From: Candidatus Latescibacterota bacterium
GTDB taxonomy: Bacteria; Latescibacterota; UBA2968; UBA8231
Length of the DNA stretch: 32,000 bases
Direction of reading: 5' to 3'
Assembly: GCA_965243025.1 (NCBI GenBank)
Contig: CBDETY010000003.1
Coordinates: forward strand, 2,851,506 to 2,883,505
Below the pieces are notes generated by a model that was not told where the DNA came from, ran no database searches, and was given only the letters and a program-made list of their open reading frames with translations. Position numbers and translations under genes: made by a program. Each line of letters opens with the position of its first letter. The stretch's first letter is position 1. Shown here piece after piece: positions 1-10,239 of the stretch.

Positions 1-395
1 ACAACGTCGAGCTGCCCCTGGTCTACGCCGGGACGCGGCGGCGCCAGAGACGGGAAAGGGCCGAGGCCGCCCTCGAGCGCGTCGGCCTCGCCGACCGCAT
101 GGACCACCGGCCCGCCGAGCTGTCCGGGGGACAGCGCCAGCGGGTGGCCATCGCCCGGGCGCTGGTCAACGAGCCGTCGCTGCTGCTCGCCGACGAGCCG
201 ACAGGCAACCTCGACAGCCGCACCGGGGAGGAGATCATGGGCCTCTTCGACCACCTGCACGCCGAGGGAAACACCGTCATCCTCGTCACCCACGAGCAGC
301 ATGTCGCCGGCCACGCGCGGCGCTCGATAGCCATCCTCGACGGCCTCGTGGCTTCCGACGAAAGGAGGGGCGGTCAGCCCTCGGACCGTTCCTGA
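1..395 (+). CDS. ABC transporter ATP-binding protein, C-terminal part (MacB/LolD type); 5' end lies outside the window
   Basis: Frame 3 is open from nt 3 ([10 protein letters not shown]...). It carries the ABC signature [15 protein letters not shown], Walker [13 protein letters not shown] and H-loop VILVTHE. TGA stop at 393-395. The 3' end overlaps the convergent ACP gene by 22 nt. Confidence 0.9.
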
Positions 396-658
396 GCCGC
401 GGCCCCGAGCTTTGCCATTACGAAGTCGACGATAGCGTCGCAGGTCTCGAACAGCTCGATGCGCAGCTCCTCGTCGTCGATCTCGAAGCCGAACTCCTCC
501 TCCAGGCCGGCGATCAGCTCGAGCGAGGCGACCGACGAGGCGCCGCCGTCCCCGAACAGGGGCTCGCCGTCCGGGATTTCCTCCGGATCGATGTCGAGCC
601 CGAGGGTGGCGGCGATCGTCCGCTTAACCCGCTTTCTCGTCTCTTCCCGTTCCGGCAT
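374..658 (-). CDS. Acyl/peptidyl carrier protein (phosphopantetheine-binding, 94 aa)
   Basis: ATG at 658 with GGAG 6 nt upstream. The acidic 4-helix-type sequence [28 protein letters not shown] aligns with E. coli ACP [26 protein letters not shown], and a Ser sits at the attachment position. The start lies 35 nt upstream of the preceding gene's stop. Confidence 0.8.
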
Positions 659-2651
659 TCTCCTGCTCCGGATCCTGTGAAAAATGGGCCACGACGGTCT
701 CGACCAGGCGGCCTTCCCCCGCCCGCGACAGGATCGCCGCGGCGGGGATGCCGAAGCGGTCTTCGAGACGGCGCAGGTTGCTGTCGATCTCCCCGGCCGA
801 CATCTGGCGCGGGGTGATCCAGCTGCGCCCGTAGGCGGCGCGGATGTGCTTCTCCTTGTCGCTCATCGCCAGGGCGATGGTCGGCGCCTTCGCCAGTCCG
901 CGCAGGCAGGCGATGGTGTCCGCGACGTACTCCTCGGGGTCGATGCTGTTGACCACCAGGACGACGGCGTCCGGCCTGGTGCCGAGCAGGAAGGCGAGAG
1001 AGGTAATGGTATGGGTCGACGGGTGCTCGATGGCGTAGGGGATCGTCCCCGACTGGCACCCCACCAGCATGATGTCCGGCTTCCTGTGGTGGGCGATCTC
1101 CCGCATCCTGGCGTCGAGAAAGGGGGCGTACCACTGCAGCGGCAGCTCGAGCGGCGACGCGTACCCCATCGGGAAAGAGAAGTCCATGCCGAAAAGGGCG
1201 GAGTGGTGCTCGGTGCCGACCTGGCCGACCGCGTACCCCGCCTTCTGCAGGCGCCGCCGCAGGGCGAGCTGCAGGGTGAACTTCCCCTGCTGCGAGCTGG
1301 TGCCGAACACCCCCAGCACCGGGATGTCGACGGCACCGTACCGGCTCGACCGGCGCAGCAGCGCCTCGACCTCGGCGTTGTCGACCCCCGGGTAGGCGAT
1401 CTTCAGGTTGCGGCGCCGGGCCTCGGCGTGCAGGTCCCCGTACTTCGCCGGCAGGACCGGCAGGAAGCTGAAGACGTGCAGCCCCGCGGCAAGTGCGGCC
1501 CCGACCGACTCCCGCAGGACGTCCCGCCTGCCGATGCGGCCCAGCTCGTCGACGTACCCCAGGATCAGGGTATCGGCGCCGCCCAGGGCATCCCCGAGCT
1601 TCGGGCAGATGCGGATCCCGACCGGGGGCAGCCCGAGGGCCTCGCCGGCGTCCTTGCCCGCCAGCCCCTTGCCGGCGGGATCGGCGATGCCCACGACCTC
1701 GAAGTCGAGGTGTTTCAGGTGCCGGACCAGGCTGTGCATCTCCTTGTTGAAGGGGTACAGGGCCGCCTTGTGGATCCAGTCCGGGCAGCCGCCGCCCTCG
1801 ACATGCGAGGTGCTCTCCCGGGGAGCCGGTCCCGCCACCGGGTTGGCAACCCCGGCCCGGTCGCGGACGGCTCCCGCCGAAGGGCGCCGGCCCGGTTTGT
1901 CCCGGGGAGGGCGAACCTCCTCGTCCAGGGCGTTCGCCTTCAGGATCTCCCGCACCTCCTCGAGGCCGGCTTCTGGCGAAGCCTCCCTGATCAGGGCGAC
2001 GATGCCGCTGACATGGGGGGCGGCGAAGCTGGTGCCCGCGGTCATCACCTCGCGCGGCTGCAGCCAGCACAGCCGCTGCTCGTCGCCGCGGGCGACGCAC
2101 TCGATCGGCTTGCCCTCCCGGTAGTGGAACCCGTAGCGGCCGGGGACCTTGCCGCCGGCCACCCCGATGACGTCGGGCAGCACCGCCGGGTAGCTCTCGA
2201 GCCCCTCGTTGTGCTCGGCGGCCACCAGGATGACTCCGGCGCGGGCAGCCTCCCGGGCCGCCTCGGTGAGAGGACGGCGAAAGCTCGCGTCCGTGGTCCC
2301 GAGACTGAGGTTGACGACGTCCATTTCCTCGTCGAGGCACCAGCGCAGGGCGGCGACCAGGACGCTGCCGTCGGCGCTGAGGGATTCGTCGAAGATGCGC
2401 ACGCTGTAGATAGAGGCGGCCGGCGCCTTCTTGAGGATGATCCCGGCGCAGGCGGTGCCGTGCCCCGCCTTGTCGGCGATCTCCCCGATCTGCTCGATCC
2501 GCCCGTCCCCGCCGACTGACATGGCCACCCCGCCGGCCACCCGGATGCGCGGATGCGCCGGGTCGACACCGCTGTCGACGACAGCGACCCTGATCCCCGC
2601 CCCGGTGAGGGCCTGGAAGGGCAACTGGAGGGAGCCAGGTGCTGGTGTCAT
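624..2651 (-). CDS. Fusion protein: N-terminal subtilase (peptidase S8) domain plus C-terminal DUF1611/DgcN-like domain
   Basis: Subtilase triad motifs are present: VAVVDSGVD (Asp), GHGTACAGII (His) and GTSFAAPHVSG (Ser). There is no signal peptide. The C-terminal ~330 aa looks DUF1611-like, with P-loop-like VLGVFGTSSQQGKFT and TLILGYVDELG. I placed the start at ATG 2651 because AAGGAG (ctcctt at 2662-2667 on the + strand) lies 10 nt upstream; the longest ORF would begin at 2696. TAA stop at 624-626. Confidence 0.8.
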   Translation of the reverse strand: MTPAPGSLQLPFQALTGAGIRVAVVDSGVDPAHPRIRVAGGVAMSVGGDGRIEQIGEIADKAGHGTACAGIILKKAPAASIYSVRIFDESLSADGSVLVAALRWCLDEEMDVVNLSLGTTDASFRRPLTEAAREAARAGVILVAAEHNEGLESYPAVLPDVIGVAGGKVPGRYGFHYREGKPIECVARGDEQRLCWLQPREVMTAGTSFAAPHVSGIVALIREASPEAGLEEVREILKANALDEEVRPPRDKPGRRPSAGAVRDRAGVANPVAGPAPRESTSHVEGGGCPDWIHKAALYPFNKEMHSLVRHLKHLDFEVVGIADPAGKGLAGKDAGEALGLPPVGIRICPKLGDALGGADTLILGYVDELGRIGRRDVLRESVGAALAAGLHVFSFLPVLPAKYGDLHAEARRRNLKIAYPGVDNAEVEALLRRSSRYGAVDIPVLGVFGTSSQQGKFTLQLALRRRLQKAGYAVGQVGTEHHSALFGMDFSFPMGYASPLELPLQWYAPFLDARMREIAHHRKPDIMLVGCQSGTIPYAIEHPSTHTITSLAFLLGTRPDAVVLVVNSIDPEEYVADTIACLRGLAKAPTIALAMSDKEKHIRAAYGRSWITPRQMSAGEIDSNLRRLEDRFGIPAAAILSRAGEGRLVETVVAHFSQDPEQENAGTGRDEKAG

Positions 2652-2754
2652 GGATCGGACGCTCCTTCGGGCGGGTGGAACGAGGCCGGCCGACATGCGG
2701 ATGCGGCCGCTTCGCCTTCCCTGTAGACGTGCCAGCGGCTGGAAGTGCTAGTGC

Positions 2755-2908
2755 CCCGTCGCAGAAATATCTCGACATTGGGACGCCGATCCATCCCGGC
2801 TCACGGCGTTGCCTTCGCTCCCCGTACGCCCTCGGTACGACTCGCTCAGGCGCCTTGTGAGCCGGGCGCCTCGGCATCCCAATTTTGTCAATCTATCTCT
2901 GCGACGGG
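2755..2908 (-). repeat. Conserved structured element, copy A (read on the minus strand), directly upstream of the S8-DUF1611 gene
   Basis: Read on the minus strand it aligns with copies B and C: gtcccgtcgcagagatagattgacaaaattgggatgccgaggcgcccggctcacaaggcgcctgagcgagtcgtaccgagggcgtacgg.... Hairpins lie at 2848-2871, 2822-2841 and 2805-2813. An 11-bp inverted repeat (cccgtcgcaga at 2755-2765 and tctgcgacggg at 2898-2908) closes the whole element. Confidence 0.7.
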
Positions 2909-3157
2909 ACACCTAGCCCTTCCGCGCGCAATTCCGTGAATTCGTTCCCCGCGGCATCCCGGCACAGTTACCCCCGTCCTTGCTCCGACATACCCCGGCA
3001 GGCACTTGCGGAGGCCCCTCATTCTTTCCGGGAAACCAGGCAGCAGGCGCCCGGCCGTCCTGGCGACCGCTGAAACGGCGCTAGTACACACACCCCCGGA
3101 TGCGTCTGATGGATAGCGCTCTCACCCGAAATCCATCCGCAGCGCAGGAGGCTCCCC

Positions 3158-4348
3158 ATGGCGGAAACGGCCGTACTTCCGCTCAACGAAGATCCGCCGG
3201 TGAGAGGGTATCTCCGGCACGCATTCCTCTTCTCCATCCTCGCGACCGACGACATCTACCTGCCCTGGCTGTTCGGCGGCAACTACACCCAACTGGTCTT
3301 CGACCGCGACCCCGGGTGGATGCCGCTCGACTTCTACAGCCCCCTCGGCTACAGCGGCAGCGGCTTCGCCTGTCCCTTTCTCGACGCCCAGTGGATCGGC
3401 CGCACCCTGATCGAGGGGGGATACGGCAGCGCCGTCCCGTTCCTGATCGAGAGCATCGACGAAGGCTACTACGCGAGACTGACGGTTGACGAGTTCTATC
3501 TGCCCGGGAGGACCTCCTACCGCCGCCGCCACTTCATGCACAGCCTGCTCGTCCACGGGTACGACCGCGGCCGCGGCCTTTTCCGGGCGGCGGGGTACCT
3601 TGCGAACGGGGAGTACCGATCCTCCCGGGTGACCTTTACCGAACTGGAGGAGGCGTTCGCCGTCGGCCTCGAGCCCCTGGAGACGGGGGATCGGGACCGG
3701 GGAAGTGACGGCGAGAGCGATACCGGACCGCGCAGATTCGACGGGGTCGGATCGCGCGCCGACCTGCGGCGCTGCATGTACAGCAAACGGTTGAGCAACG
3801 TCGAGTCCAACAGGGTCTGGCTGGTTCGATACAACCGCGAGGCCCGCTTCGAGCTCGACTTCGGAGCGGCCCTGGAAATGCTGGAGGATTACGCGAATTC
3901 CGCGAGGACGCCGTCGCGGTTTGCGAGCATCCTCACTTTCCCGAACAAGGTCTACACCCTCGGACAGCCGGTCCCCGAACGGGAAGACCTGACCTTCGGA
4001 GTCGAAACCTACGGCTGCCTTCAGTGGTGGATGGAGGAGGTTCTGCGGGGGCGCCGGGAATTCGACATCATCCCCTTCCACGTGCTCTGGGAGCACAAGA
4101 AGGTCATGGTGTCGCGGCTGGAGTACTTCGAGAGGAAGGGCTTTCTCGACCCTTCGCTGGCCCTGTCGGCCCGCTACCGGGAAATCGAAGCCAGGGCCTC
4201 CCACCTGCGGCTGCTGATGATTCGCTGCCGCATGAAGCAGGACCTGAAGCTGCTGGACCGCTCGCTCGCCCGCGTGGCCAACCTCCGGAAGGAGGAGACG
4301 CGGGCGCTTGACGGTGTGCTGCGCGCCGCGGGGTCCGCCCGGGCCTGA
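3158..4348 (+). CDS. Hypothetical protein, 396 aa, with a tentative BtrH-N-like / papain-fold signature
   Basis: AGGAGG at 3146-3151 lies 6 nt before ATG 3158. Composition is coding-like, unlike its 360-aa shadow ORF. The segment IDEGYYARLTVDEFYLPGRTSYRRRHFMHSLLVHGYDRGRGLF resembles the His...GYD core of BtrH N-terminal/C39-like domains, recognised from memory only. Confidence 0.6.
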   Translation: MAETAVLPLNEDPPVRGYLRHAFLFSILATDDIYLPWLFGGNYTQLVFDRDPGWMPLDFYSPLGYSGSGFACPFLDAQWIGRTLIEGGYGSAVPFLIESIDEGYYARLTVDEFYLPGRTSYRRRHFMHSLLVHGYDRGRGLFRAAGYLANGEYRSSRVTFTELEEAFAVGLEPLETGDRDRGSDGESDTGPRRFDGVGSRADLRRCMYSKRLSNVESNRVWLVRYNREARFELDFGAALEMLEDYANSARTPSRFASILTFPNKVYTLGQPVPEREDLTFGVETYGCLQWWMEEVLRGRREFDIIPFHVLWEHKKVMVSRLEYFERKGFLDPSLALSARYREIEARASHLRLLMIRCRMKQDLKLLDRSLARVANLRKEETRALDGVLRAAGSARA

Positions 4349-4371: not shown

Positions 4372-5013
4372 CTACTCCTGCGGCTCGCCGTTTTCCCTGT
4401 TGGCACCCCTCTGCCGCTCACGGCGCAGCAACCACCCCGGGATCTTCCGCAATGAGTCCACTATCTGCTGCAGAAGCCGCTGGTGGCGCGCCCTGCTCAC
4501 GGTCAGCTCCGCCAGCTTGATCCAGGGGGCGCGTTCCCGCACGTGGCCTTCCGCCCTCGACAGATGCGCTTTCACCGACTCCTCCGCCAGCCCGAGAAAG
4601 CGCGCGATCTCCTCGCATGAGCTCCCCTCGATATGGAAGAGCACGAAGATCCGGCGGCTTTCCCGGGGAATCTCGTCCAGCAGGCTCCAGAGTTTCGCCG
4701 GCACCTCGACCCTTTTCTCGGGCTCCTGGTCCTCCGGGGGGCGCGGCGATCCTTTCATGTAGGCGTGAACGCGCCCATCCGGCTCCACACTCCCTCCGGA
4801 ACGCTTTGCCGCGAAGCGGCTGACGGACCCGTGCGCAGGCCTGATCAGCGCCACAACGAACTCGCGCAGGAAACGGCGGGCTTCCTCCTCCACTGTCCGG
4901 ATCACCTCCGCAACAGGCAAAGCAACGGCCCCGCAACAGACGGTTTCCGCCTGAATCGGACCGAAGGGGGAGTTTTTGTAATCGGGCGTTTTCGAATCAC
5001 TTATCCTCGACAT
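4372..5013 (-). CDS. Sigma-70 region 4 (ECF-type HTH) domain protein; no recognisable region 2
   Basis: LWSLLDEIPRESRRIFVLFHIEGSSCEEIARFLGLAEESVKAHLSRAEGHVRE matches the ECF sigma region 4.2 pattern. The N-terminal ~100 aa show no region 2 motifs. ATG at 5013. The gene converges on the 396-aa gene across a 23-nt gap. Confidence 0.65.
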   Translation of the reverse strand: MSRISDSKTPDYKNSPFGPIQAETVCCGAVALPVAEVIRTVEEEARRFLREFVVALIRPAHGSVSRFAAKRSGGSVEPDGRVHAYMKGSPRPPEDQEPEKRVEVPAKLWSLLDEIPRESRRIFVLFHIEGSSCEEIARFLGLAEESVKAHLSRAEGHVRERAPWIKLAELTVSRARHQRLLQQIVDSLRKIPGWLLRRERQRGANRENGEPQE

Positions 5014-5094
5014 TCGTTTTTCGTTCTCCCGTGGCGGTTCTCAAGGCCTTCACATGTCTGACGGCAATGAACACCGAAGTACTATAAGCACTAT

Positions 5095-5248
5095 GTGACA
5101 GAATGGGTTGTCCCGACAACGGGCGCAGGCGCCCGGACTCACAAGCCGCCTCAGCGAGCCGTACCGAGGGTGTACGGCGAGCGCAGGCAACGCCGGGAGT
5201 CGGGATTGAGGCGGAAAATCGCACCGGATGAGGATTTCATTTAACCGC
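5095..5248 (+). repeat. Conserved structured element, copy B
   Basis: Aligns with copy C across aggcgcccgg(a)ctcacaa...cagcgagccgtaccgagggtgtacggcgagcg...gcaccggatgaggatttcatttaaccgc. Hairpins lie at 5127-5151, 5158-5178 (perfect 7-bp stem gccgtac/gtacggc) and 5186-5194. Confidence 0.7.
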
Positions 5249-5277
5249 GATTTTTCCCCTCAAATGGATCGGCGGAA

Positions 5278-5305
5278 GAATTGCAAGGTGAATTGCAAGG
5301 AATTG
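5278..5305. repeat. Short tandem direct repeat, gaattgcaagg twice with 12-nt period plus a partial third unit
   Basis: gaattgcaagg occurs at 5278-5288 and 5290-5300, followed by aattg at 5301-5305. It sits in the lower-GC spacer between element copies B and C. Confidence 0.6.
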
Positions 5306-5508
5306 ATGGGACAGGACACTGGTATGTATTGACCCTCTGCAAGCTATAGCAGAGAACTCCAATCCGGGTTCACGCTTTGATTTTTGCCGGTCTGCCTTCT
5401 CCCGTGGCTTTAACCGGGAGGAACGGATAATACGACGGTCATCACTCTGGTATTCGCGGGTTGGCTGCTGCCTGACCTTTCTTCGTCGCCGAGCTGCCTC
5501 TGTCCGGA

Positions 5509-5662
5509 GTCCCGCAGAGATAGATTGACAGAATCGGGATGCGGAGGCGCCCGGCTCACAGGGCGCCCCAGCGAGTCGTACCGAGGGTGTACGGCGAGCG
5601 TAGACAATGTCGTGAACCGGGATCGAGGGGAAATGCACCGGATGAGGATTTCATTGAACCGC
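5509..5662 (+). repeat. Conserved structured element, copy C
   Basis: It shares the 5' module gtcccgcagagatagattgacagaatcggg with copy A and the 3' module gcaccggatgaggatttcattgaaccgc with copy B. Hairpins lie at 5546-5567, 5575-5595 (a T-G wobble replaces the C-G pair of copy B) and 5603-5611 (gac-aat-gtc versus ggc-aac-gcc in A and B). Confidence 0.7.
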
Positions 5663-5771
5663 AAACCGCCTCGCGGCGTGCTTCGTCTCCGGGGAGATCG
5701 CTCTCCCCAAAGGCAATCCGCGAACATCGAGATCGGGGAGGTCCTTTTTGTCCCCGGTCAATACATAAGGT

Positions 5772-6861: not shown

Positions 6862-8187
6862 TTACCCGACTTCGGCCAGCGCCCTGCCGAAGGCCTCGAT
6901 GAAACCGTCGATGTCGGCGGCCTGCGCCGGCAGCGAGACGGCGTTCATGCCGATGTTGTGGCTGAGGAAGTACCCCTGGTTCAACAGCGACAGGAACACC
7001 GGGGCGTTCAGCTCCTTGTCGATGCGGGCCAGGCTGCGGTAGCAGCGCGGCTGCTCCGCGGTGAAGTATATGCTGAACACCGATCCGTCGCGCAGGGCCA
7101 CGCCGGGGATGCCGGCGCGCTCCAGTTCCTTCCCGACCCCGGCGCAAAGCCTTTCGGTCAATCCGTTCACGTGGGCGAAAGCCTCCGGGGTCAGCTGCTC
7201 GAGGGTCGCCCTGCCGGCGGCCATCACCAGGGCGTGGCCGCTGTGGGTGCCGCTCTGGAAGACCCGCGCCGGCCCTTCGGAGTTGTCGGTCAGGTCCATG
7301 ATGTCGCGCCGGCCCCCGAACGCCCCGACCGGGAAGCCGCCGCCGACGATCTTGCCGTACGTGCTTAGGTCGGGCCGGATCCCGAACTGCTCCTGGATGC
7401 CGCCGGTGCCGACGCGGAAACCGACGATCTCGTCGCACAGGAGGATGAGACCGTGTTTTCTCGCGGTCGCCTCGACGGCGCGGATGAACTCCGGCCGCTG
7501 CGGCATGACCCCCGCCTTCGGGTCGAGCATGATGCAGGCCAGCTCGCCGGCGTGGGCGGCGACGATCCGCTCCACGGCTTCCTCGTCGTCGTAGGGGAGG
7601 ATCACCACTGCCTCGGCGGCGGCAGGGGCCATGCCCCCGGCCCCGGGCACTGCCACCGGGGCATCGGCGGGCCCGGCTTCGTCAAGGGGAGGGGCTACGC
7701 TGATCTCGACGCCGTCGTGGTTGCCGTGGTACCCGCCTTCGAACTTGGCGATCTTCGGCCTGCCGCTGAACTCCCGGGCGAGGCGCACCGCGTGCAGGGT
7801 CGCCTCGGTTCCGGAGTTGCAGAAGCGGACGCGGTCCAGGGAGGCGACGCGGCGGCACATCTCCTCGGCCATCTCGACCTCGTTCCCCATGCTCGCCCCG
7901 AGAGCTATCCCCCGATTCATCTGGCTTGCGATCGCCGCCACGACCGCGGGGTGGTTGTGCCCGAGCACCTGCGCGGTGTGGTGATTGGCGAGATCGAGGT
8001 AGCGGTGGCCGTCGACGTCCCACAGGTACTGGCCCTCGCCACGCTCCAGGGACAGGGGAAACGGCGGGTAGAAATAGGCCCCCTTCACACCGCCGGGCAT
8101 TACCTTGCGGCCGCGCTCGAACAACTCTCGCGAACGCGGGTGGGCGGCCTTGTAGCGTTCGGAAACGGATTCGAATTTGGGGTTCAA
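6862..8187 (-). CDS. Class-III PLP-dependent aminotransferase (glutamate-1-semialdehyde aminomutase-like)
   Basis: MPGGVKGAYFYPPFPL..., ANHHTAQVLGHNHP, and the HemL-like Schiff-base lysine context YGKIVGGGFPVGAFGGRRDIMD. TTG start at 8187 is preceded by AAAGAGG 4-5 nt upstream. Confidence 0.85.
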   Translation of the reverse strand: MNPKFESVSERYKAAHPRSRELFERGRKVMPGGVKGAYFYPPFPLSLERGEGQYLWDVDGHRYLDLANHHTAQVLGHNHPAVVAAIASQMNRGIALGASMGNEVEMAEEMCRRVASLDRVRFCNSGTEATLHAVRLAREFSGRPKIAKFEGGYHGNHDGVEISVAPPLDEAGPADAPVAVPGAGGMAPAAAEAVVILPYDDEEAVERIVAAHAGELACIMLDPKAGVMPQRPEFIRAVEATARKHGLILLCDEIVGFRVGTGGIQEQFGIRPDLSTYGKIVGGGFPVGAFGGRRDIMDLTDNSEGPARVFQSGTHSGHALVMAAGRATLEQLTPEAFAHVNGLTERLCAGVGKELERAGIPGVALRDGSVFSIYFTAEQPRCYRSLARIDKELNAPVFLSLLNQGYFLSHNIGMNAVSLPAQAADIDGFIEAFGRALAEVG

Positions 8188-8340
8188 GGGTCCTCTTTCT
8201 TCTTCTGTTTGGAAGCTGGCCGCGGGCGGATGTCCGGGGCCCCGGCTGCGATTCCCGGCAAGTCTATGGGATTCGCGCCGAGACTGTCAATTTGGATTGC
8301 TGCCCGCCTCGATTCACCATTCGGTGAGCGCCTGGGCGAT

Positions 8341-8392
8341 CCGCGAAGTCGAGGTGATCTTCTCACTTACTTCGCGGAACTTACTTCGCGGA
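8341..8392. promoter_or_regulatory. Inverted repeat with two alternative partners: ccgcgaagt, then a 2 x 14-bp tandem repeat acttacttcgcgga
   Basis: ccgcgaagt at 8341-8349 is the reverse complement of acttcgcgg, which occurs twice (8369-8377 and 8383-8391) inside a perfect tandem duplication at 8365-8392. The site lies in the divergent, lower-GC intergenic region. Confidence 0.4.
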
Positions 8393-8837
8393 CTGGAGGT
8401 GAAGCTGATCGGACGCGGCGTAGGGTTCGCGCGAAATTTCCAGGGAAGTAAGAGGCAAGCCGTCCCGGGTGTCCCATGCTTTCCAATCACAAACCTCATC
8501 CAAATGAAAGGATGAAAAAATGAAAGATCTTCTCATGCTCTCTGGCCCCCTGGGCTACCACCGGGGAGCGTATCTTGAGCGCAATCGAGCAGGCGGGTGA
8601 GCTTCTCACGAGCCGGACCGGTTTCGTGGGGAGTTCATCATGAACGAGAGCGGCTCGTATTGCCAATGCTACTGACTTCGGGGAGTCCCGATTAGCGTCA
8701 AAGTCGACAGCATGGTCGTAACTGACCTCGGCCATTCTCCGATCATGCAGTACTTCTGGAGTGTGGCCGAGGTTCTTTTTCATTCCTTCTTGTCCCGCTG
8801 CTTCAACACAGGGTTACAGATCAAAGGTGGAGTTCAA

Positions 8838-9746
8838 ATGCAATTCCTTTCGTTCCGAAACGCTTTTTTTATCCTGCTCCCGACGATTGCTCTCGATGCC
8901 CAGTGGTCGGACCGCGTCTATCCGATCAGGGAGCTGACCGACGAGATGCGGGCGCACATCGACATCAGGGACGGTTCGGTTGACGACTGGTCGGAGGTAC
9001 TCGGCGAACCTGCCTTGACGGCACTGGATTTCGCCACTCACCCATCCTATCCGGAGTACGACCCGTCGTCCTTCGACTTTCGCGTCTGGCTTGCCTGGCA
9101 CGATGCAGGCAACCACCTGTTCGTGGCCGCCGAGATCGTGGACGATATCTACGTAGGAATGTGGCCGGATAATCCTCCTGATTGGGCTCCCGCCGATCGT
9201 CCTCCATTTTGGCAGCCTGCCGAAGGAACCGTTCAATTGTTGGTCGACGGCGACAGGAGTGGTGGGACGGTAGTCGAAACCGGAATGGAACAGGCGCAAG
9301 CGTATTGGGCGGTTGCCGAAAACCATGAAAACGGCAGCAACGTCTTTCTGAGTTTGGTGGGTCTCGATTATCCCTGGGTGCAACAGGTACCGTACGCCGA
9401 TGGCAGCGGGAGCGTACTGGACAGTCAGCCCGTCTTCTACGCGGTCGAGTTTTACGTCACCCCGTTTGACAGGTTGATTCCGGACTCCCCGGAGAACAGC
9501 CTGGTATCCGACCTTTACGCCGGCAAAACGATAGGTTTTTCCATGGGGATTTCGGACTCTGACACGGACCCGTTAGAGGATGACCGTTATCACGCCTTGT
9601 CCGGACCTGACGACTCATGGGGAGAGGGAATTTTAGTGTCTGACCTGTGGGCGCACGGGATCCTTCTGGGTGCCGACGGCGGTACGGAGGGCACCGCGGC
9701 CGAATGGGTCACCTGGGGCCGCATCAAGGCCAGCCTGTCGGAGTAG
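8838..9746 (+). CDS. Secreted protein with a CBM9-like / DOMON-like carbohydrate-binding fold (tentative)
   Basis: GGTGGAG lies 5 nt before ATG 8838. Signal-peptide-like N-terminus MQFLSFRNAFFILLPTIALDA. FDFRVWLAWHDAGNHLFVAAEIVDDIYV and GKTIGFSMGISDSDTD resemble CBM9-type domains. The track's start at 8712 is an unlikely upstream extension. Confidence 0.6.
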   Translation: MQFLSFRNAFFILLPTIALDAQWSDRVYPIRELTDEMRAHIDIRDGSVDDWSEVLGEPALTALDFATHPSYPEYDPSSFDFRVWLAWHDAGNHLFVAAEIVDDIYVGMWPDNPPDWAPADRPPFWQPAEGTVQLLVDGDRSGGTVVETGMEQAQAYWAVAENHENGSNVFLSLVGLDYPWVQQVPYADGSGSVLDSQPVFYAVEFYVTPFDRLIPDSPENSLVSDLYAGKTIGFSMGISDSDTDPLEDDRYHALSGPDDSWGEGILVSDLWAHGILLGADGGTEGTAAEWVTWGRIKASLSE

Positions 9747-10239
9747 AGTTCCGGCCTCAACTCACCGCGGGATCTCTGAATCCACACCTCGCCGGTCAGC
9801 CTCAACGGACCCGGAACCTTCGTCCGCCACCTCGACCGCGAAGGCTCTTTCTGCACCCGCAAAAGCTCGTAGCAGGCGATCGGCCGTCGCGGCCACCCGG
9901 CCACCGGGGTGCCCTGCCTGGTTGCGCGCGCACCGGCCCCTGAGCGACGGTCCGCTTCGGCGGTAACCAACCCAGCGTCGATAAACTATCTTTGGTTCTC
10001 CCCCAAGCTTGCGGTGGACTCACAGTCCGAGACGGTCCCTGGGGCGGTCGGACCCCGGAATGCCGGGGAAATCGACGCCCCTTCCATTCCCGCCGGAGTT
10101 CGAGGCGGTGTGCCACAGGGAGGATTCCTGTCATGCGAGCCCCGGAAATCCGAATTGGCATTGACTTCCCGCTGACAGCGGTTGGCTGGAGGCCAGGCTG
10201 TTGATGAGCCGCTGCATCCCTTCACCGAGCTGATTGGAA

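What the first reader, a model, noticed from the sequence alone, without database searches (positions are those of the whole stretch)
374..2696. Cytoplasmic subtilase fused to a DUF1611-like domain, translationally coupled to a dedicated carrier protein
One polypeptide joins a signal-less S8 protease with an intact Asp/His/Ser triad to a DUF1611-like domain. That family includes the D-glutamate N-acetyltransferase DgcN, an acyl-transfer-type fold. Its stop codon lies 35 nt inside the start of a 94-aa ACP whose Ser is at the canonical phosphopantetheine position, so the two are almost certainly co-expressed. A MacB/LolD-type ABC ATPase converges on the ACP with a 22-nt overlap, and a BtrH-N-like protein is the divergent neighbour. 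The arrangement reads like a self-contained cleave-and-acylate maturation module for a peptide or amino-acid-derived product. No precursor, radical-SAM, NRPS or PKS gene is visible. My unverified recollection is that TIGRFAMs describes a clostridial peptide maturation system pairing a DUF1611 homologue with an ACP-related protein beside a radical-SAM enzyme. If that is right, this would be a distant variant carrying a protease and lacking the rSAM.
Basis: partly seen in the sequence, partly recalled or inferred. Interest (0 to 1): 0.8.

Follow-up and report, generated by a model that had tools for sequence, protein, structure and literature searches.

The report
Peptide-maturation protease with carrier-protein partner
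A signal-less subtilisin-type protease fused to an uncharacterised P-loop (DUF1611-like) domain is almost always followed by a small acyl-carrier protein and usually by a BtrH/CtaG/CcbD-fold enzyme. Together they form a widespread, biochemically unstudied kit for finishing and exporting ribosomally made peptides, but the copy in this window has no peptide-substrate gene nearby.

Summary
ORF 624-2696(-), whose likely true start is 2651, encodes Peptidase_S8 plus DUF1611_N/DUF1611. It overlaps a 94-aa PP-binding protein (374-658) by 35 nt, and that gene overlaps a converging MacB-type ABC ATPase by 22 nt.

The fusion is real and common. It accounts for 121 of the best 150 clusters (50% identity) in an exhaustive search. 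The catalytic triad and the P-loop are conserved, and dN/dS is about 0.2.

Across 26 related loci:
- The carrier protein is present in all 20 evaluable loci, and its attachment Ser is invariant.
- A BtrH-family partner is present in 15. The window's p396 has the CtaG/CcbD/AziU fold but lacks the nucleophile Cys. One locus has a BtrH-like-PCP-Condensation protein instead.
- An ABC exporter recurs.
- 12 loci carry precursor peptides that share the leader M-K-x-x-L-x-K-P...V-x-A-Y but have very different cores.
- 5 loci carry rSAM/SPASM maturases.

The closest described system is the clostridial TIGR04065-04069 set, which is unfused and has no biochemistry.

My best reading is a QhpE-like cytoplasmic leader peptidase tethered to a carrier-protein-dependent (thiotemplated) tailoring unit, with export through a MacB pump. 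The chemistry is inferred, not shown. The window copy has no precursor and no rSAM. I class it as a new variant of a known kind, of moderate to high interest.

The parts
624..2651 (-). CDS of the S8-DUF1611 fusion protein. It is 675 aa from the likely start ATG 2651; the longest ORF starts at 2696 and gives 690 aa. Residue numbers below use the 690-aa frame.
   Evidence: P0001, 675 aa, 98% identity; AAGGAG 10 nt upstream of 2651; dN/dS 0.21-0.25
1929..2603 (-). Peptidase_S8 domain (residues 32-256). Triad: D41 (2574-2576), H79 (2460-2462), S223 (2028-2030). Oxyanion N129. No signal peptide and no pro-domain.
   Evidence: nearest QhpE; subtilisin fold, E 1e-14; triad conserved: D 50/53, H 53/53, S 52/53
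1791..1922 (-). Pro/Arg/Gly-rich linker (residues 259-302) between the two halves, predicted disordered and variable in length.
   Evidence: pLDDT about 27; length-variable, unaligned region
681..1769 (-). DUF1611-like (TIGR04066-like) half: a Rossmann-like N-domain plus a P-loop domain. The Walker-A-like motif GTSSQQGKFT is at 1275-1304.
   Evidence: 2g0t TM0796, E 2e-13, TMt 0.71; P-loop, E496, Q548, N583 and D586 conserved
374..658 (-). Dedicated acyl-carrier protein, 94 aa. The attachment Ser42 codon is at 533-535. Its start lies 35 nt inside the fusion's 3' end, with GGAG 7 nt upstream.
   Evidence: Ser42 invariant; dN/dS 0.16
3158..4348 (+). p396, the divergent neighbour. It has the BtrH_N/DUF4872 fold (CtaG/CcbD/AziU family). 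His128 is conserved, and the canonical nucleophile Cys is replaced by Phe25, followed by Ser26.
   Evidence: Homologues lie next to the ACP in L003, L004, L008, L084, L085 and L087.
1..395 (+). 3' part of a MacB/DarD-type ABC ATPase gene that converges on the ACP with a 22-nt overlap. In the 98%-identical contig L001 the rest of the operon (two FtsX permeases, a HlyD/YknX adaptor and Yip1) lies beyond window nt 1.
   Evidence: The system is co-oriented with the fusion and ACP in L002, L010, L085 and L087.
4372..5013 (-). Sigma-70 region-4 (ECF-like) protein next to p396. Its membership in the system is uncertain: it is conserved only in the closest relatives L001 and L006. The SacP23 cluster also carries an ECF sigma.

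Best explanation
The fusion, the ACP and the BtrH-like p396 are the conserved core of a peptide (RiPP/bacteriocin-type) maturation-and-export system. It is a fused, rSAM-less Latescibacterota variant of the TIGR04065-04069 system.

Proposed steps
1. The signal-less S8 half acts in the cytoplasm as a QhpE-type leader peptidase. It cuts precursors that carry the leader M-K-x-x-L-x-K-P...V-x-A-Y, at or near the A-Y junction.
2. The ACP is phosphopantetheinylated on Ser42 and carries an acyl or aminoacyl unit as a thioester.
3. The DUF1611-like P-loop half is the only unassigned enzyme in the conserved core. It loads the carrier from an activated carboxylate or a CoA thioester, or otherwise handles the loaded carrier.
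4. The BtrH-family partner takes the carrier-bound unit and forms an amide with the peptide, most plausibly at the amine freed by leader removal.
5. The MacB-type tripartite pump, with Yip1-type membrane proteins, exports the product.

Status of each claim
- Shown here: domain identities, fold assignments, conservation of catalytic motifs, gene linkage, the precursor family in relatives, and purifying selection.
- Inferred: every chemical step, the site of modification and the nature of the carried group.
- In this window the system has no precursor and no rSAM enzyme, so its substrate must be encoded elsewhere.
For: 1. Domains and motifs.

2. The S8 half is closest to QhpE. QhpE is a cytoplasmic subtilisin-like leader peptidase that acts on an rSAM-cross-linked peptide before ABC export (PMC7876137).

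3. The C-terminal half is closest to TIGR04066. In Paenibacillus the same gene set occurs unfused: precursor, ECF sigma, ABC transporter, rSAM TIGR04068, TIGR04066, ACP-related TIGR04069, an unknown protein and a subtilisin (PMC10731318).

4. The fusion is widespread and constrained (dN/dS).

5. The ACP is found in 20 of 20 evaluable loci and immediately downstream in 16. Ser42 is one of only three invariant residues at 14-51% identity.

6. The partner enzyme:
- p396 has the fold of CtaG, CcbD (including CcbD-PCP complexes) and AziU2/U3. All 16 top PDB hits are these proteins, and the next hit has E 0.67.
- The characterised members CtaG and CcbD are carrier-protein-dependent amide-forming enzymes (PMC7183216; PMC12945683).
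- Canonical BtrH_N+DUF4872 proteins replace p396 in L007, L009, L010 and L014.
- In L086 the partner is a BtrH-like-PCP-Condensation protein.

7. 19 precursor candidates in 12 loci share a leader but have unrelated cores: Cys-rich, Gly/Ala-hydrophobic, or long and acidic. This argues that the conserved enzymes act on the conserved leader-core junction.

8. MacB/HlyD/Yip1 genes are in the same operon, and in L010 they lie between the fusion and the ACP. The window ATPase also resembles DarD, the darobactin exporter ATPase.

9. rSAM/SPASM thioether-type maturases occur in 5 loci (the fifth, L016 819-2084, was assigned from its Cx3Cx2C motif in the ORF listing and was not scanned against any family library).
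Against: - No precursor with the family leader, and no other candidate, was found in the window or in 10 kb beyond it (L001), nor in the 85%-identical L006.
- p396 lacks the canonical Cys nucleophile and misses the Pfam cutoff. It could be non-catalytic or do different chemistry; AziU2/U3, its best structural match, is not a transacylase (my recollection).
- p396 is degraded in L006. No BtrH-family gene was seen in L002, L011, L012 or L018.
- No phosphopantetheinyl transferase or acyl-activating enzyme is conserved in the loci.
- In the alignment to TM0796 (2g0t), its 'VEGQG' motif reads 'VG(C/S)QSG' here, so that acidic residue is absent and ATP use is uncertain.
- No member of the family, including TIGR04066/TIGR04069, has been studied biochemically in the literature I could search.
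- The relative position of the two halves is not predicted with confidence (pTM 0.56).
Confidence: 0.5

Rival explanations
1. The DUF1611 half is itself a DgcN-like N-acyltransferase. It moves an acyl group from the ACP thioester, used in place of acetyl-CoA, onto the N-terminus created by the fused protease. The BtrH-like protein is accessory, serving for example in recognition or proofreading.
For: - Protease and DUF1611 are physically fused in at least 121 sequence clusters, and the ACP is translationally coupled to the fusion.
- The P-loop and several polar residues are conserved.
- p396 lacks the nucleophile Cys, so another enzyme might have to do the transfer.
- Some loci (L002, L012) have the fusion and ACP but no BtrH-like gene.
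- DgcN is reported to be a DUF1611 protein that uses acetyl-CoA. This is my recollection and was not verifiable here.
Against: - The fusion protein returned no NCBIfam DgcN hit at E up to 0.1.
- This model leaves the carrier without a loading enzyme.
- It does not explain why a family of carrier-protein-dependent transacylases, or a PCP-Condensation protein, is the third conserved partner.
Confidence: 0.2
2. The system only cleaves and exports. The S8 half removes the leader. The DUF1611 half, the ACP-like protein and the Cys-less BtrH-like protein are non-catalytic and serve for leader or peptide binding, chaperoning, or gating of the exporter.
For: - p396 has lost the canonical Cys.
- The acidic residue that TM0796 (2g0t) has in its 'VEGQG' motif is absent here.
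- No loading enzyme or phosphopantetheinyl transferase is present in the loci.
- The cores are so diverse that a common core modification is unlikely.
- QhpE-type proteases are single-turnover enzymes that might need partners (PMC7876137).
Against: - The attachment Ser of the ACP is invariant while the rest of the protein drifts to 14% identity.
- The P-loop Gly/Thr/Lys and D586 are conserved in 48-53 of 53 fusions and in the stand-alone forms (P-loop 7 of 7, D586 5 of 7).
- Other loci have Cys-bearing BtrH_N proteins, and one has a PCP-Condensation protein, in the same position.
Confidence: 0.13
3. In this particular genome the locus is an orphan remnant of a once larger cluster. It was rearranged around MITE-like repeats and no longer makes a product.
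For: - There is no precursor, no rSAM and no ABC_membrane-type exporter in the window.
- p396 and the sigma gene are bracketed by inverted copies of a 115-nt repeat.
- p396 is degraded in L006.
- The gene order is inverted relative to the single-operon layout of L087 and L085.
Against: - dN/dS is 0.16-0.25 for the fusion and ACP against L006, and 0.20 for p396 against L001.
- At least ten distinct close homologues (84-98% identity) of the fusion, and more than ten clusters of p396 homologues at 41-90% identity, of which about eight are at 83-90%, keep full length.
- RiPP precursors are often encoded away from their enzymes.
Confidence: 0.1
4. The locus has nothing to do with ribosomal peptides. 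It would be a small-molecule thiotemplated pathway like butirosin or closthioamide side-chain assembly, or an anti-phage or general proteolysis function.
For: - The ACP plus BtrH-fold enzyme pairing is known from small-molecule pathways.
- The window itself has no precursor.
- S8 proteases occur in some defence systems; PADLOC gives generic subtilase and weak IetS hits.
Against: - 12 related loci carry leader-bearing small genes beside ABC exporters, Rce1-like immunity-type proteins and rSAM/SPASM peptide maturases.
- The nearest curated families are peptide-maturation families.
- No ATP-grasp, decarboxylase or sugar-pathway genes are conserved in the loci.
- There is no specific PADLOC system hit.
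Confidence: 0.05

Closest known systems
TIGR04065-TIGR04069 'CLI_3235' clostridial/Paenibacillus peptide maturation system. It comprises a precursor, the TIGR04066 protein, the rSAM CcpM (TIGR04068) and the ACP-related TIGR04069. An example is the SacP23 cluster (PMC10731318).
   Same: It has the same parts list: a DUF1611-like TIGR04066-type protein, a small ACP-type protein, a subtilisin-like protease, an ABC transporter, an ECF-type sigma and an extra unknown protein. The C-terminal half of the window protein hits TIGR04066 at E 2.6e-29. Distant fusion loci (L019, L020) have the rSAM and ACP-like genes adjacent.
   Different: - Here the protease and the TIGR04066-like protein are one polypeptide.
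- All scores are below the curated cutoffs: 102 against 200, and the ACP has no TIGR04069 hit.
- The window has no rSAM and no precursor.
- Precursors of relatives belong to no curated family.
- The hosts are mostly diderm Latescibacterota with a MacB-type pump.
- The known system is itself only bioinformatically defined.
QhpE/QhpD/QhpF of quinohemoprotein amine dehydrogenase maturation
   Same: It is the best NCBIfam match of the S8 half (E 2.6e-44). QhpE is signal-less, acts in the cytoplasm as a leader peptidase and is followed by ABC export. Thioether-forming rSAM/SPASM enzymes related to QhpD occur in some related loci.
   Different: The score of 151 is below the equivalog cutoff of 165. 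No QhpA, QhpB, QhpC or QhpG genes are present. QhpE has no DUF1611 domain and no ACP partner.
BtrH (butirosin), CtaG (closthioamide) and CcbD/LmbD (lincosamides): papain-fold, carrier-protein-dependent amide-forming transacylases. AziU2/U3 shares the fold.
   Same: p396's predicted fold matches exactly these proteins. The catalytic His is conserved. A dedicated carrier protein is encoded next to it. Related loci carry canonical BtrH_N+DUF4872 proteins.
   Different: - p396 and its subfamily lack the nucleophile Cys: Phe25 takes its place and Ser26 is nearly invariant.
- The Pfam score is below cutoff.
- The acceptor would be a ribosomal peptide, not a sugar or a polyamine.
- No ATP-grasp or adenylating loader is present.
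DUF1611 (PF07755/PF17396): TM0796 structure 2g0t, and DgcN D-glutamate N-acetyltransferase (from memory)
   Same: Both Pfam domains are above gathering. The fold matches 2g0t over 394 columns. The P-loop motif GTxxxxGKxT is shared.
   Different: Sequence similarity to 2g0t is marginal (E 6e-4). There is no NCBIfam DgcN hit. The 'EGQG' motif is changed. This version is fused to a protease and paired with an ACP.
Carrier-protein-dependent lipidated or hybrid RiPPs (lipolanthines, goadvionins, selidamides), from memory
   Same: They illustrate the same concept: a ribosomal peptide receives a thioester-activated acyl group.
   Different: Those systems use PKS/FAS modules and GNAT acyltransferases. 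None of these is conserved here; one GNAT-like gene occurs only in L087.

Membership tests
Peptidase S8 (subtilase) | Pfam PF00082 match above the gathering score | tested here: met
   95.7 bits against 21.8, residues 32-256
Peptidase S8 (subtilase) | Asp/His/Ser triad in that order, plus the oxyanion Asn | tested here: met
   D41, H79, S223 and N129 were verified at their codons. They are invariant in A1. In 53 diverse fusions the counts are D 50, H 53 and S 52.
Peptidase S8 (subtilase) | Subtilisin fold | tested here: met
   Foldseek against subtilisins: E about 1e-14, about 240 columns, TMt 0.65-0.70
QhpE equivalog (NF049966) | Score at or above the curated cutoff of 165 | tested here: not met
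   151.2 bits
QhpE equivalog (NF049966) | qhp operon context (QhpA/B/C, rSAM QhpD) | tested here: not met
   None is present in the window or in L001
DUF1611 (PF17396 + PF07755) | Both Pfam domains above gathering | tested here: met
   30.0 against 22.6 and 53.1 against 25
DUF1611 (PF17396 + PF07755) | Fold of the solved member TM0796 (2g0t) | tested here: met
   E 2e-13, 394 columns, TMt 0.71
DgcN (D-glutamate N-acetyltransferase) | Match to NCBI's DgcN model | tested here: inconclusive
   No DgcN hit appears among the 7 NCBIfam families at E up to 0.1. I could not confirm that the library holds such a model, and the DgcN paper was not in the library searched.
TIGR04066 peptide maturation system protein | Score at or above the curated cutoff of 200 | tested here: not met
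   102.4 bits, E 2.6e-29, residues 310-588
TIGR04066 peptide maturation system protein | Neighbouring ACP-related protein | tested here: met
   The ACP overlaps the fusion's 3' end and is present in 20 of 20 evaluable loci. It does not match the TIGR04069 model itself.
TIGR04066 peptide maturation system protein | Neighbouring rSAM maturase TIGR04068 and a CLI_3235-family precursor | tested here: not met
   Neither is in the window. The rSAM enzymes in L009, L012, L019 and L020 score below every equivalog cutoff. The precursors match no curated family.
Acyl carrier protein (PP-binding) | PF00550 match above gathering | tested here: met
   35.2 against 20.8. All ACP equivalog models score below their cutoffs.
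Acyl carrier protein (PP-binding) | Conserved Ser at the phosphopantetheine attachment site | tested here: met
   Ser42 is invariant in 14 of 14 homologues at 14-51% identity
Acyl carrier protein (PP-binding) | Actual 4'-phosphopantetheinylation and thioester loading | not testable with these tools
   Needs mass spectrometry of the expressed protein
BtrH_N/DUF4872 transacylases (BtrH, CtaG, CcbD) | Pfam BtrH_N above the gathering score of 29.7 | tested here: not met
   18.6 bits, E 0.0022, C-terminal part of the model only
BtrH_N/DUF4872 transacylases (BtrH, CtaG, CcbD) | Two-domain fold (papain-like plus helical DUF4872) | tested here: met
   AF2 model pLDDT 78. The top 16 PDB hits are AziU2/U3, CtaG and CcbD, with E from 1e-7 to 6e-4.
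BtrH_N/DUF4872 transacylases (BtrH, CtaG, CcbD) | Cys-His-Asp/Glu catalytic triad | tested here: not met
   His128 is invariant, but the Cys column holds Phe, Leu or Thr in the p396 subfamily. Cys is present in the canonical BtrH_N partners of L007, L009 and L014.
RiPP/bacteriocin biosynthetic cluster | Precursor peptide gene with a conserved leader in the locus | tested here: not met
   The leader HMM finds nothing in the window, L001 or L006. Precursor candidates are present in 12 related loci.
MacB-type tripartite ABC exporter | ATPase + FtsX/MacB_PCD permease + HlyD-type adaptor | tested here: met
   The ATPase 3' end is in the window. The permeases and adaptor are seen in the 98%-identical contig L001.

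The most novel reading that the evidence does not exclude
The S8-DUF1611 fusion, its ACP and the BtrH-family partner may constitute a previously unrecognised NRPS-independent thiotemplate machine that works on ribosomal peptides. In this reading the DUF1611 P-loop domain is a new kind of carrier-protein loader. The fused protease exposes the acceptor amine, and the papain-fold partner (or a Condensation domain) attaches the carried unit. This would define a new RiPP class marked by the leader M-K-x-x-L-x-K-P...V-x-A-Y, found in Latescibacterota, KSB1, Ignavibacteriota, Spirochaetota, Myxococcota and Clostridia.
Probability: 0.3. Interest if true: 0.8.

Novelty: new variant of a known kind. Interest (0 to 1): 0.6.

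Why it matters
The TIGR04066/TIGR04069 pair, a DUF1611-like protein with an ACP-like protein, has sat in RiPP cluster annotations for over a decade without an assigned function. DUF1611 itself is almost uncharacterised.

This work shows that the commonest architecture of the pair's relatives is a fusion to the leader peptidase. A carrier-protein-dependent transacylase fold is the third conserved partner. The associated precursors share a leader but not a core. Together these points turn an annotation curiosity into a testable hypothesis: carrier-protein-dependent tailoring of ribosomal peptides coupled to leader removal.

The work also provides experimentally tractable clusters. One is in a cultured organism (Rosettibacter primus, L012). 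Another has six precursors (Treponema, L019).

If the hypothesis is confirmed, it would add a new enzymatic logic to RiPP biosynthesis, give DUF1611 a second function, and supply a leader motif for genome mining in poorly studied phyla.

Tried and rejected
Searches that found nothing useful
- An exact-sequence look-up of the 690-aa ORF found nothing. The deposited gene calls start at M16 (P0001).
- My first leader regex was too strict and found only L002 and L083. I replaced it with HMMs built from the L019, L012, L002 and L083 leaders.
- The precursor hunt in the window failed throughout: the intergenic regions 2697-3157 and 5014-5771 hold only MITE-like repeats, the low-GC region 8.2-10.2 kb holds only a 344-aa secreted-type ORF, and the leader HMMs gave no hit.
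- A small 49-aa gene called between the FtsX genes of L001 was rejected as a precursor. It overlaps the 5' part of a permease that is 407 aa in L006.
- Rfam found no RNA family in the window.
- PADLOC gave only generic subtilase hits, so I dropped the defence reading.
- A PDB sequence search with p396 found nothing. The C-terminal half of the fusion hit only 2g0t, marginally.
- Literature searches for DUF1611, DgcN, CcpM and 'acyl carrier-related protein' found no biochemical study.
- Contexts of the stand-alone TIGR04066-sized relatives P0225 and P0196 were on contigs too short to be informative.

Points that limit the conclusions
- Loci L022-L081 from the genome scan are S8-only (QhpE-like) hits and were not used.
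- The conserved Cys72 of p396 was considered as an alternative nucleophile. It is absent from L004, L019 and L020, so it is not a family feature.

Full report
**1. The observation**

- ORF 624..2696 on the minus strand (690 aa) is followed by ORF 374..658 (94 aa).
- The fusion's stop codon (624-626) lies 35 nt inside the ACP gene, whose ATG is at 656-658.
- The ACP stop (374-376) lies 22 nt inside the 3' end of a plus-strand ABC ATPase gene that stops at 393-395 and runs off the window start.

Pfam places four domains, all above gathering scores.
- Peptidase_S8 at residues 32-256.
- DUF1611_N at residues 345-433.
- DUF1611 at residues 455-664.
- PP-binding in the 94-aa protein.

NCBIfam gives QhpE as the nearest S8 model (151 bits, cutoff 165). 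For residues 310-588 it gives TIGR04066, 'peptide maturation system protein' (102 bits, cutoff 200).

The triad D41/H79/S223, the oxyanion N129 and the P-loop GTSSQQGKFT are at the expected codons. There is no hydrophobic N-terminal segment.

The real start is probably ATG 2651. It has AAGGAG 10 nt upstream and matches the 675-aa homologue P0001.

**2. The fusion is genuine and common**

A word-indexed search returned 867 homologues. The best 120 all carry S8 plus DUF1611 and are 53-98% identical.

An exhaustive HMMER scan of 1.84 billion cluster representatives with the C-terminal half alone gave 1,246 clusters at E ≤ 1e-3 and 346 at E ≤ 1e-30.
- Of the best 150, 121 have an N-terminal extension of at least 190 aa. 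Only 10 are stand-alone sized.
- All 53 fusion-sized proteins sampled (52 representatives plus the window protein) match Peptidase_S8.

At 27-48% identity the key residues stay conserved.
- Triad: D 50/53, H 53/53, S 52/53.
- P-loop Lys: 48/53, plus 7/7 in stand-alone forms.
- E496: 49/53.
- D586: 53/53.

Against the 85%-identical L006, dN/dS is 0.25 for the fusion and 0.16 for the ACP.

The AlphaFold model has mean pLDDT 74. It shows a subtilisin domain and a DUF1611 domain joined by a disordered linker of about 45 residues. Foldseek finds subtilisins (E about 1e-14) and TM0796/2g0t (E 2e-13, 394 columns).

**3. Source and immediate context**

The closest genomes are Candidatus Latescibacterota (L006 at 85%).

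A 98%-identical metagenomic contig (L001) shows what lies beyond window nt 1: the rest of the ABC ATPase, two FtsX/MacB_PCD permeases, a HlyD/YknX adaptor and a Yip1 membrane protein.

On the other side of the fusion lie the divergent 396-aa gene (p396) and a sigma-70 region-4 protein. After those come unrelated genes: a GFO_IDH_MocA oxidoreductase, an aminotransferase and an RND efflux system.

**4. Conservation of neighbours**

I examined 26 distinct loci carrying a fusion: L001-L021 and L083-L087. L082 duplicates L002.

*The ACP.* It is present in all 20 loci where it can be judged.
- It is immediately downstream, often overlapping, in 16 loci.
- It is elsewhere in the cluster in L010, L019, L020 and L083.
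- Five loci end too early to judge.
- L013 begins inside the fusion and shows no ACP downstream.
- In the ACP alignment only M1, Ser42 and E53 are invariant across 14 sequences at 14-51% identity. This argues for a working phosphopantetheine site.

*A BtrH-family partner.* It is present in 15 loci.
- The p396 type is in L001, L003, L004, L008, L019, L020, L083, L084, L085 and L087, and is degraded in L006.
- Canonical BtrH_N+DUF4872 proteins are in L007, L009, L010 and L014 (E 1e-12 to 1e-13).
- L086 has a 900-aa protein. Its N-terminus is related to the BtrH-like family (hhalign 86%, E 5e-6). PP-binding (E 2e-15) and Condensation (E 7e-58) domains follow.

*Exporters.*
- ABC_membrane+ABC_tran exporters sit upstream in about a dozen loci.
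- The MacB/HlyD/Yip1 set is co-oriented with the fusion and ACP in L002, L085 and L087. In L010 it lies between the fusion and the ACP.
- The converging pump of the window is therefore functionally linked, not a chance neighbour.

*rSAM enzymes.* rSAM/SPASM enzymes occur in L009, L012, L016, L019 and L020. For the four that were scanned (L009, L012, L019, L020) the nearest models are PapB, SCIFF, QhpD, CcpM and TIGR04463, and all are below their cutoffs. L016 was judged from its Cx3Cx2C motif alone.

*Other recurrent genes.* These are TlpA-like CxxC redoxins, rhodanese, Rce1-like membrane proteases, DUF5128 propellers and glycosyltransferases.

**5. Precursors**

The Treponema locus L019 has six tandem small genes between the ACP-like gene and the ABC exporter. 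All start MKK(T/A)L(L)YKP...V.AYANEA and end in Cys-rich cores.

HMMs built from these and similar genes recovered candidates in 12 loci: L002, L004, L005, L007, L010 (three copies), L012, L016, L019, L083, L085, L086 and L087.

Nineteen leaders align to M-K-x-x-L-x-K-P-x(7-12)-V-x-A-Y-x-x-E, with L, P, V and Y nearly invariant.

The cores are unrelated to one another.
- Cys-rich: L019, L012, L083.
- Gly/Ala-rich and hydrophobic: L002, L010, L085.
- Long and acidic, or Ser/Thr-rich: L004, L005, L086, L087.

None matches Pfam or NCBIfam.

No such gene exists in the window, in L001 or in L006.

**6. The BtrH-like neighbour, p396**

p396 has few homologues (25) and no precomputed Pfam domain.

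Its AlphaFold model (pLDDT 78, pTM 0.78) matches only three proteins in the PDB: AziU2/U3 (E 1e-7), CtaG (E 5e-5) and CcbD, including CcbD-PCP complexes (E 1e-4). The next hit has E 0.67.

CtaG and CcbD are carrier-protein-dependent, papain-fold, amide-forming transacylases.
- CtaG uses a Cys-His-Asp triad (PMC7183216).
- CcbD uses a Cys-His-Glu triad (PMC12945683).
- BtrH is the founding member of the family (PMC10318531).

In the alignment of p396-type and canonical partners the catalytic His is invariant (His128). The nucleophile Cys of the canonical proteins aligns with Phe, Leu or Thr in the p396 type, followed by a mostly conserved Ser.

So p396 belongs to the fold family but fails the triad test. 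It may use another nucleophile, do different chemistry, or be an adaptor.

**7. How it most likely works**

*Firmly supported.* This is a peptide maturation and export system of the TIGR04065-04069 kind. The protease is fused to the TIGR04066-like protein, and the carrier protein is retained under selection.

*The S8 half.* It is most like QhpE. QhpE cleaves the leader of an rSAM-cross-linked peptide in the cytoplasm before ABC export. A leader-peptidase role is therefore the natural reading.

*Site of action.* The conserved enzymes accompany wholly different cores but one leader. They should therefore act at the conserved leader-core junction.

*The carrier logic.* A carrier protein with an invariant Ser sits beside a member of a carrier-dependent transacylase fold, or beside a PCP-Condensation protein in L086. 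This points to a thioester-bound unit that ends up in an amide bond.

*The DUF1611 half.* It is the only conserved enzyme left without a role. I therefore propose it as the carrier loader or handler.

Every chemical step here is inference. About 0.8 of my confidence goes to 'peptide maturation module with leader-peptidase function'. About 0.4-0.5 goes to carrier-dependent tailoring as described. Rather less goes to the specific role of DUF1611.

*Rivals.*
- A cleave-and-export system with non-catalytic partners.
- An orphan remnant in this genome.
- A non-peptide pathway.

**8. Comparison with what is known**

The nearest described system is the clostridial/Paenibacillus set. In the SacP23 cluster it appears as precursor, ECF sigma, ABC transporter, rSAM TIGR04068, TIGR04066, ACP-related TIGR04069, an unknown protein and a subtilisin-like protease. 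That paper assigns the roles only by analogy (PMC10731318).

The window's proteins score below all the curated cutoffs. They are fused, lack the rSAM, and come from a different phylum with a MacB-type pump.

I found no paper on DUF1611 in peptide maturation or on the fusion.

I therefore class it as a new variant of a known, bioinformatically defined kind. It is not an established member of TIGR04066 or of the QhpE family.

**9. Verdict**

The window copy is a reduced, rearranged instance with no precursor, no rSAM and a Cys-less partner. The family it belongs to is large, conserved and unstudied, and related loci give clear experimental entry points.

Interest is 0.6.

Noticed in passing
window 2751-2912, 5133-5250, 5513-5662: There are three copies of a MITE/REP-like element of about 115-165 nt, with core AGCGAGTCGTACCGAGGGTGTACGGCGAGCG (0 expected by chance). 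The first copy has its own terminal inverted repeats. The copies at 2790-2903 and 5513-5626 are inverted (88%) and bracket the p396 and sigma gene pair. No Rfam family matches. The element also creates spurious 'conserved' ORFs.
   Followed up: partly
L019 1708-3395 (Treponema sp. MAG), L010 3097-4415, L012 6478-6879, L085 2310-2546, L086 6205-6579, L087 5015-5368: A precursor-peptide family with no curated model. The leader is M-K-x-x-L-x-K-P...V-x-A-Y-x-x-E and the cores are unrelated. There are up to six tandem copies per locus.
   Followed up: yes
L086 12336-15038: A 900-aa protein directly after the ACP. Its N-terminus is BtrH-like and is fused to PP-binding and NRPS Condensation domains. 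This looks like an NRPS-type replacement for the stand-alone BtrH-like partner.
   Followed up: partly
L087 6095-6829: A GNAT-like acetyltransferase (Acetyltransf_1, E 2e-4) lies immediately upstream of the fusion and overlaps it. It was seen only in this locus.
   Followed up: no
L006 9495-9823: In the 85%-identical relative the p396 gene survives only as fragments of 40 and 77 aa, while the fusion, the ACP and the MacB pump are intact.
   Followed up: partly
L001 12964-14206: One FtsX permease is called at 352 aa, against 407 aa in L006, and a 49-aa antisense ORF is called in the gap. This may be a frameshift or an assembly error in that contig.
   Followed up: no
L083 and L013: A paralogous fusion type has no adjacent ACP. 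It is followed by an SBP_bac_5 protein, a dCache histidine kinase and a sigma-54 activator. In L083 the ACP, rhodanese, MauE/DoxX, a glycosyltransferase and a p396-like gene lie 5-9 kb upstream. The same genome holds a second fusion locus (L084).
   Followed up: partly
L015 (1.6-kb contig binned as a Thermoplasmatota archaeon): A fusion fragment 48% identical to the window protein sits in an archaeal MAG. On so short a contig this is probably a binning contaminant.
   Followed up: no
window 8000-10000: A low-GC stretch (0.58-0.61, against about 0.70 for its surroundings) holds a 344-aa ORF (8712-9746). L001 has no called gene in the 1.66-kb gap that I take, from gene order only, to be the equivalent region.
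   Followed up: no
window 4372-5013: A sigma-like protein has only a region-4 match (residues 107-155) and an unassigned N-terminal region of about 100 aa. It converges on p396 with a 23-nt gap.
   Followed up: no
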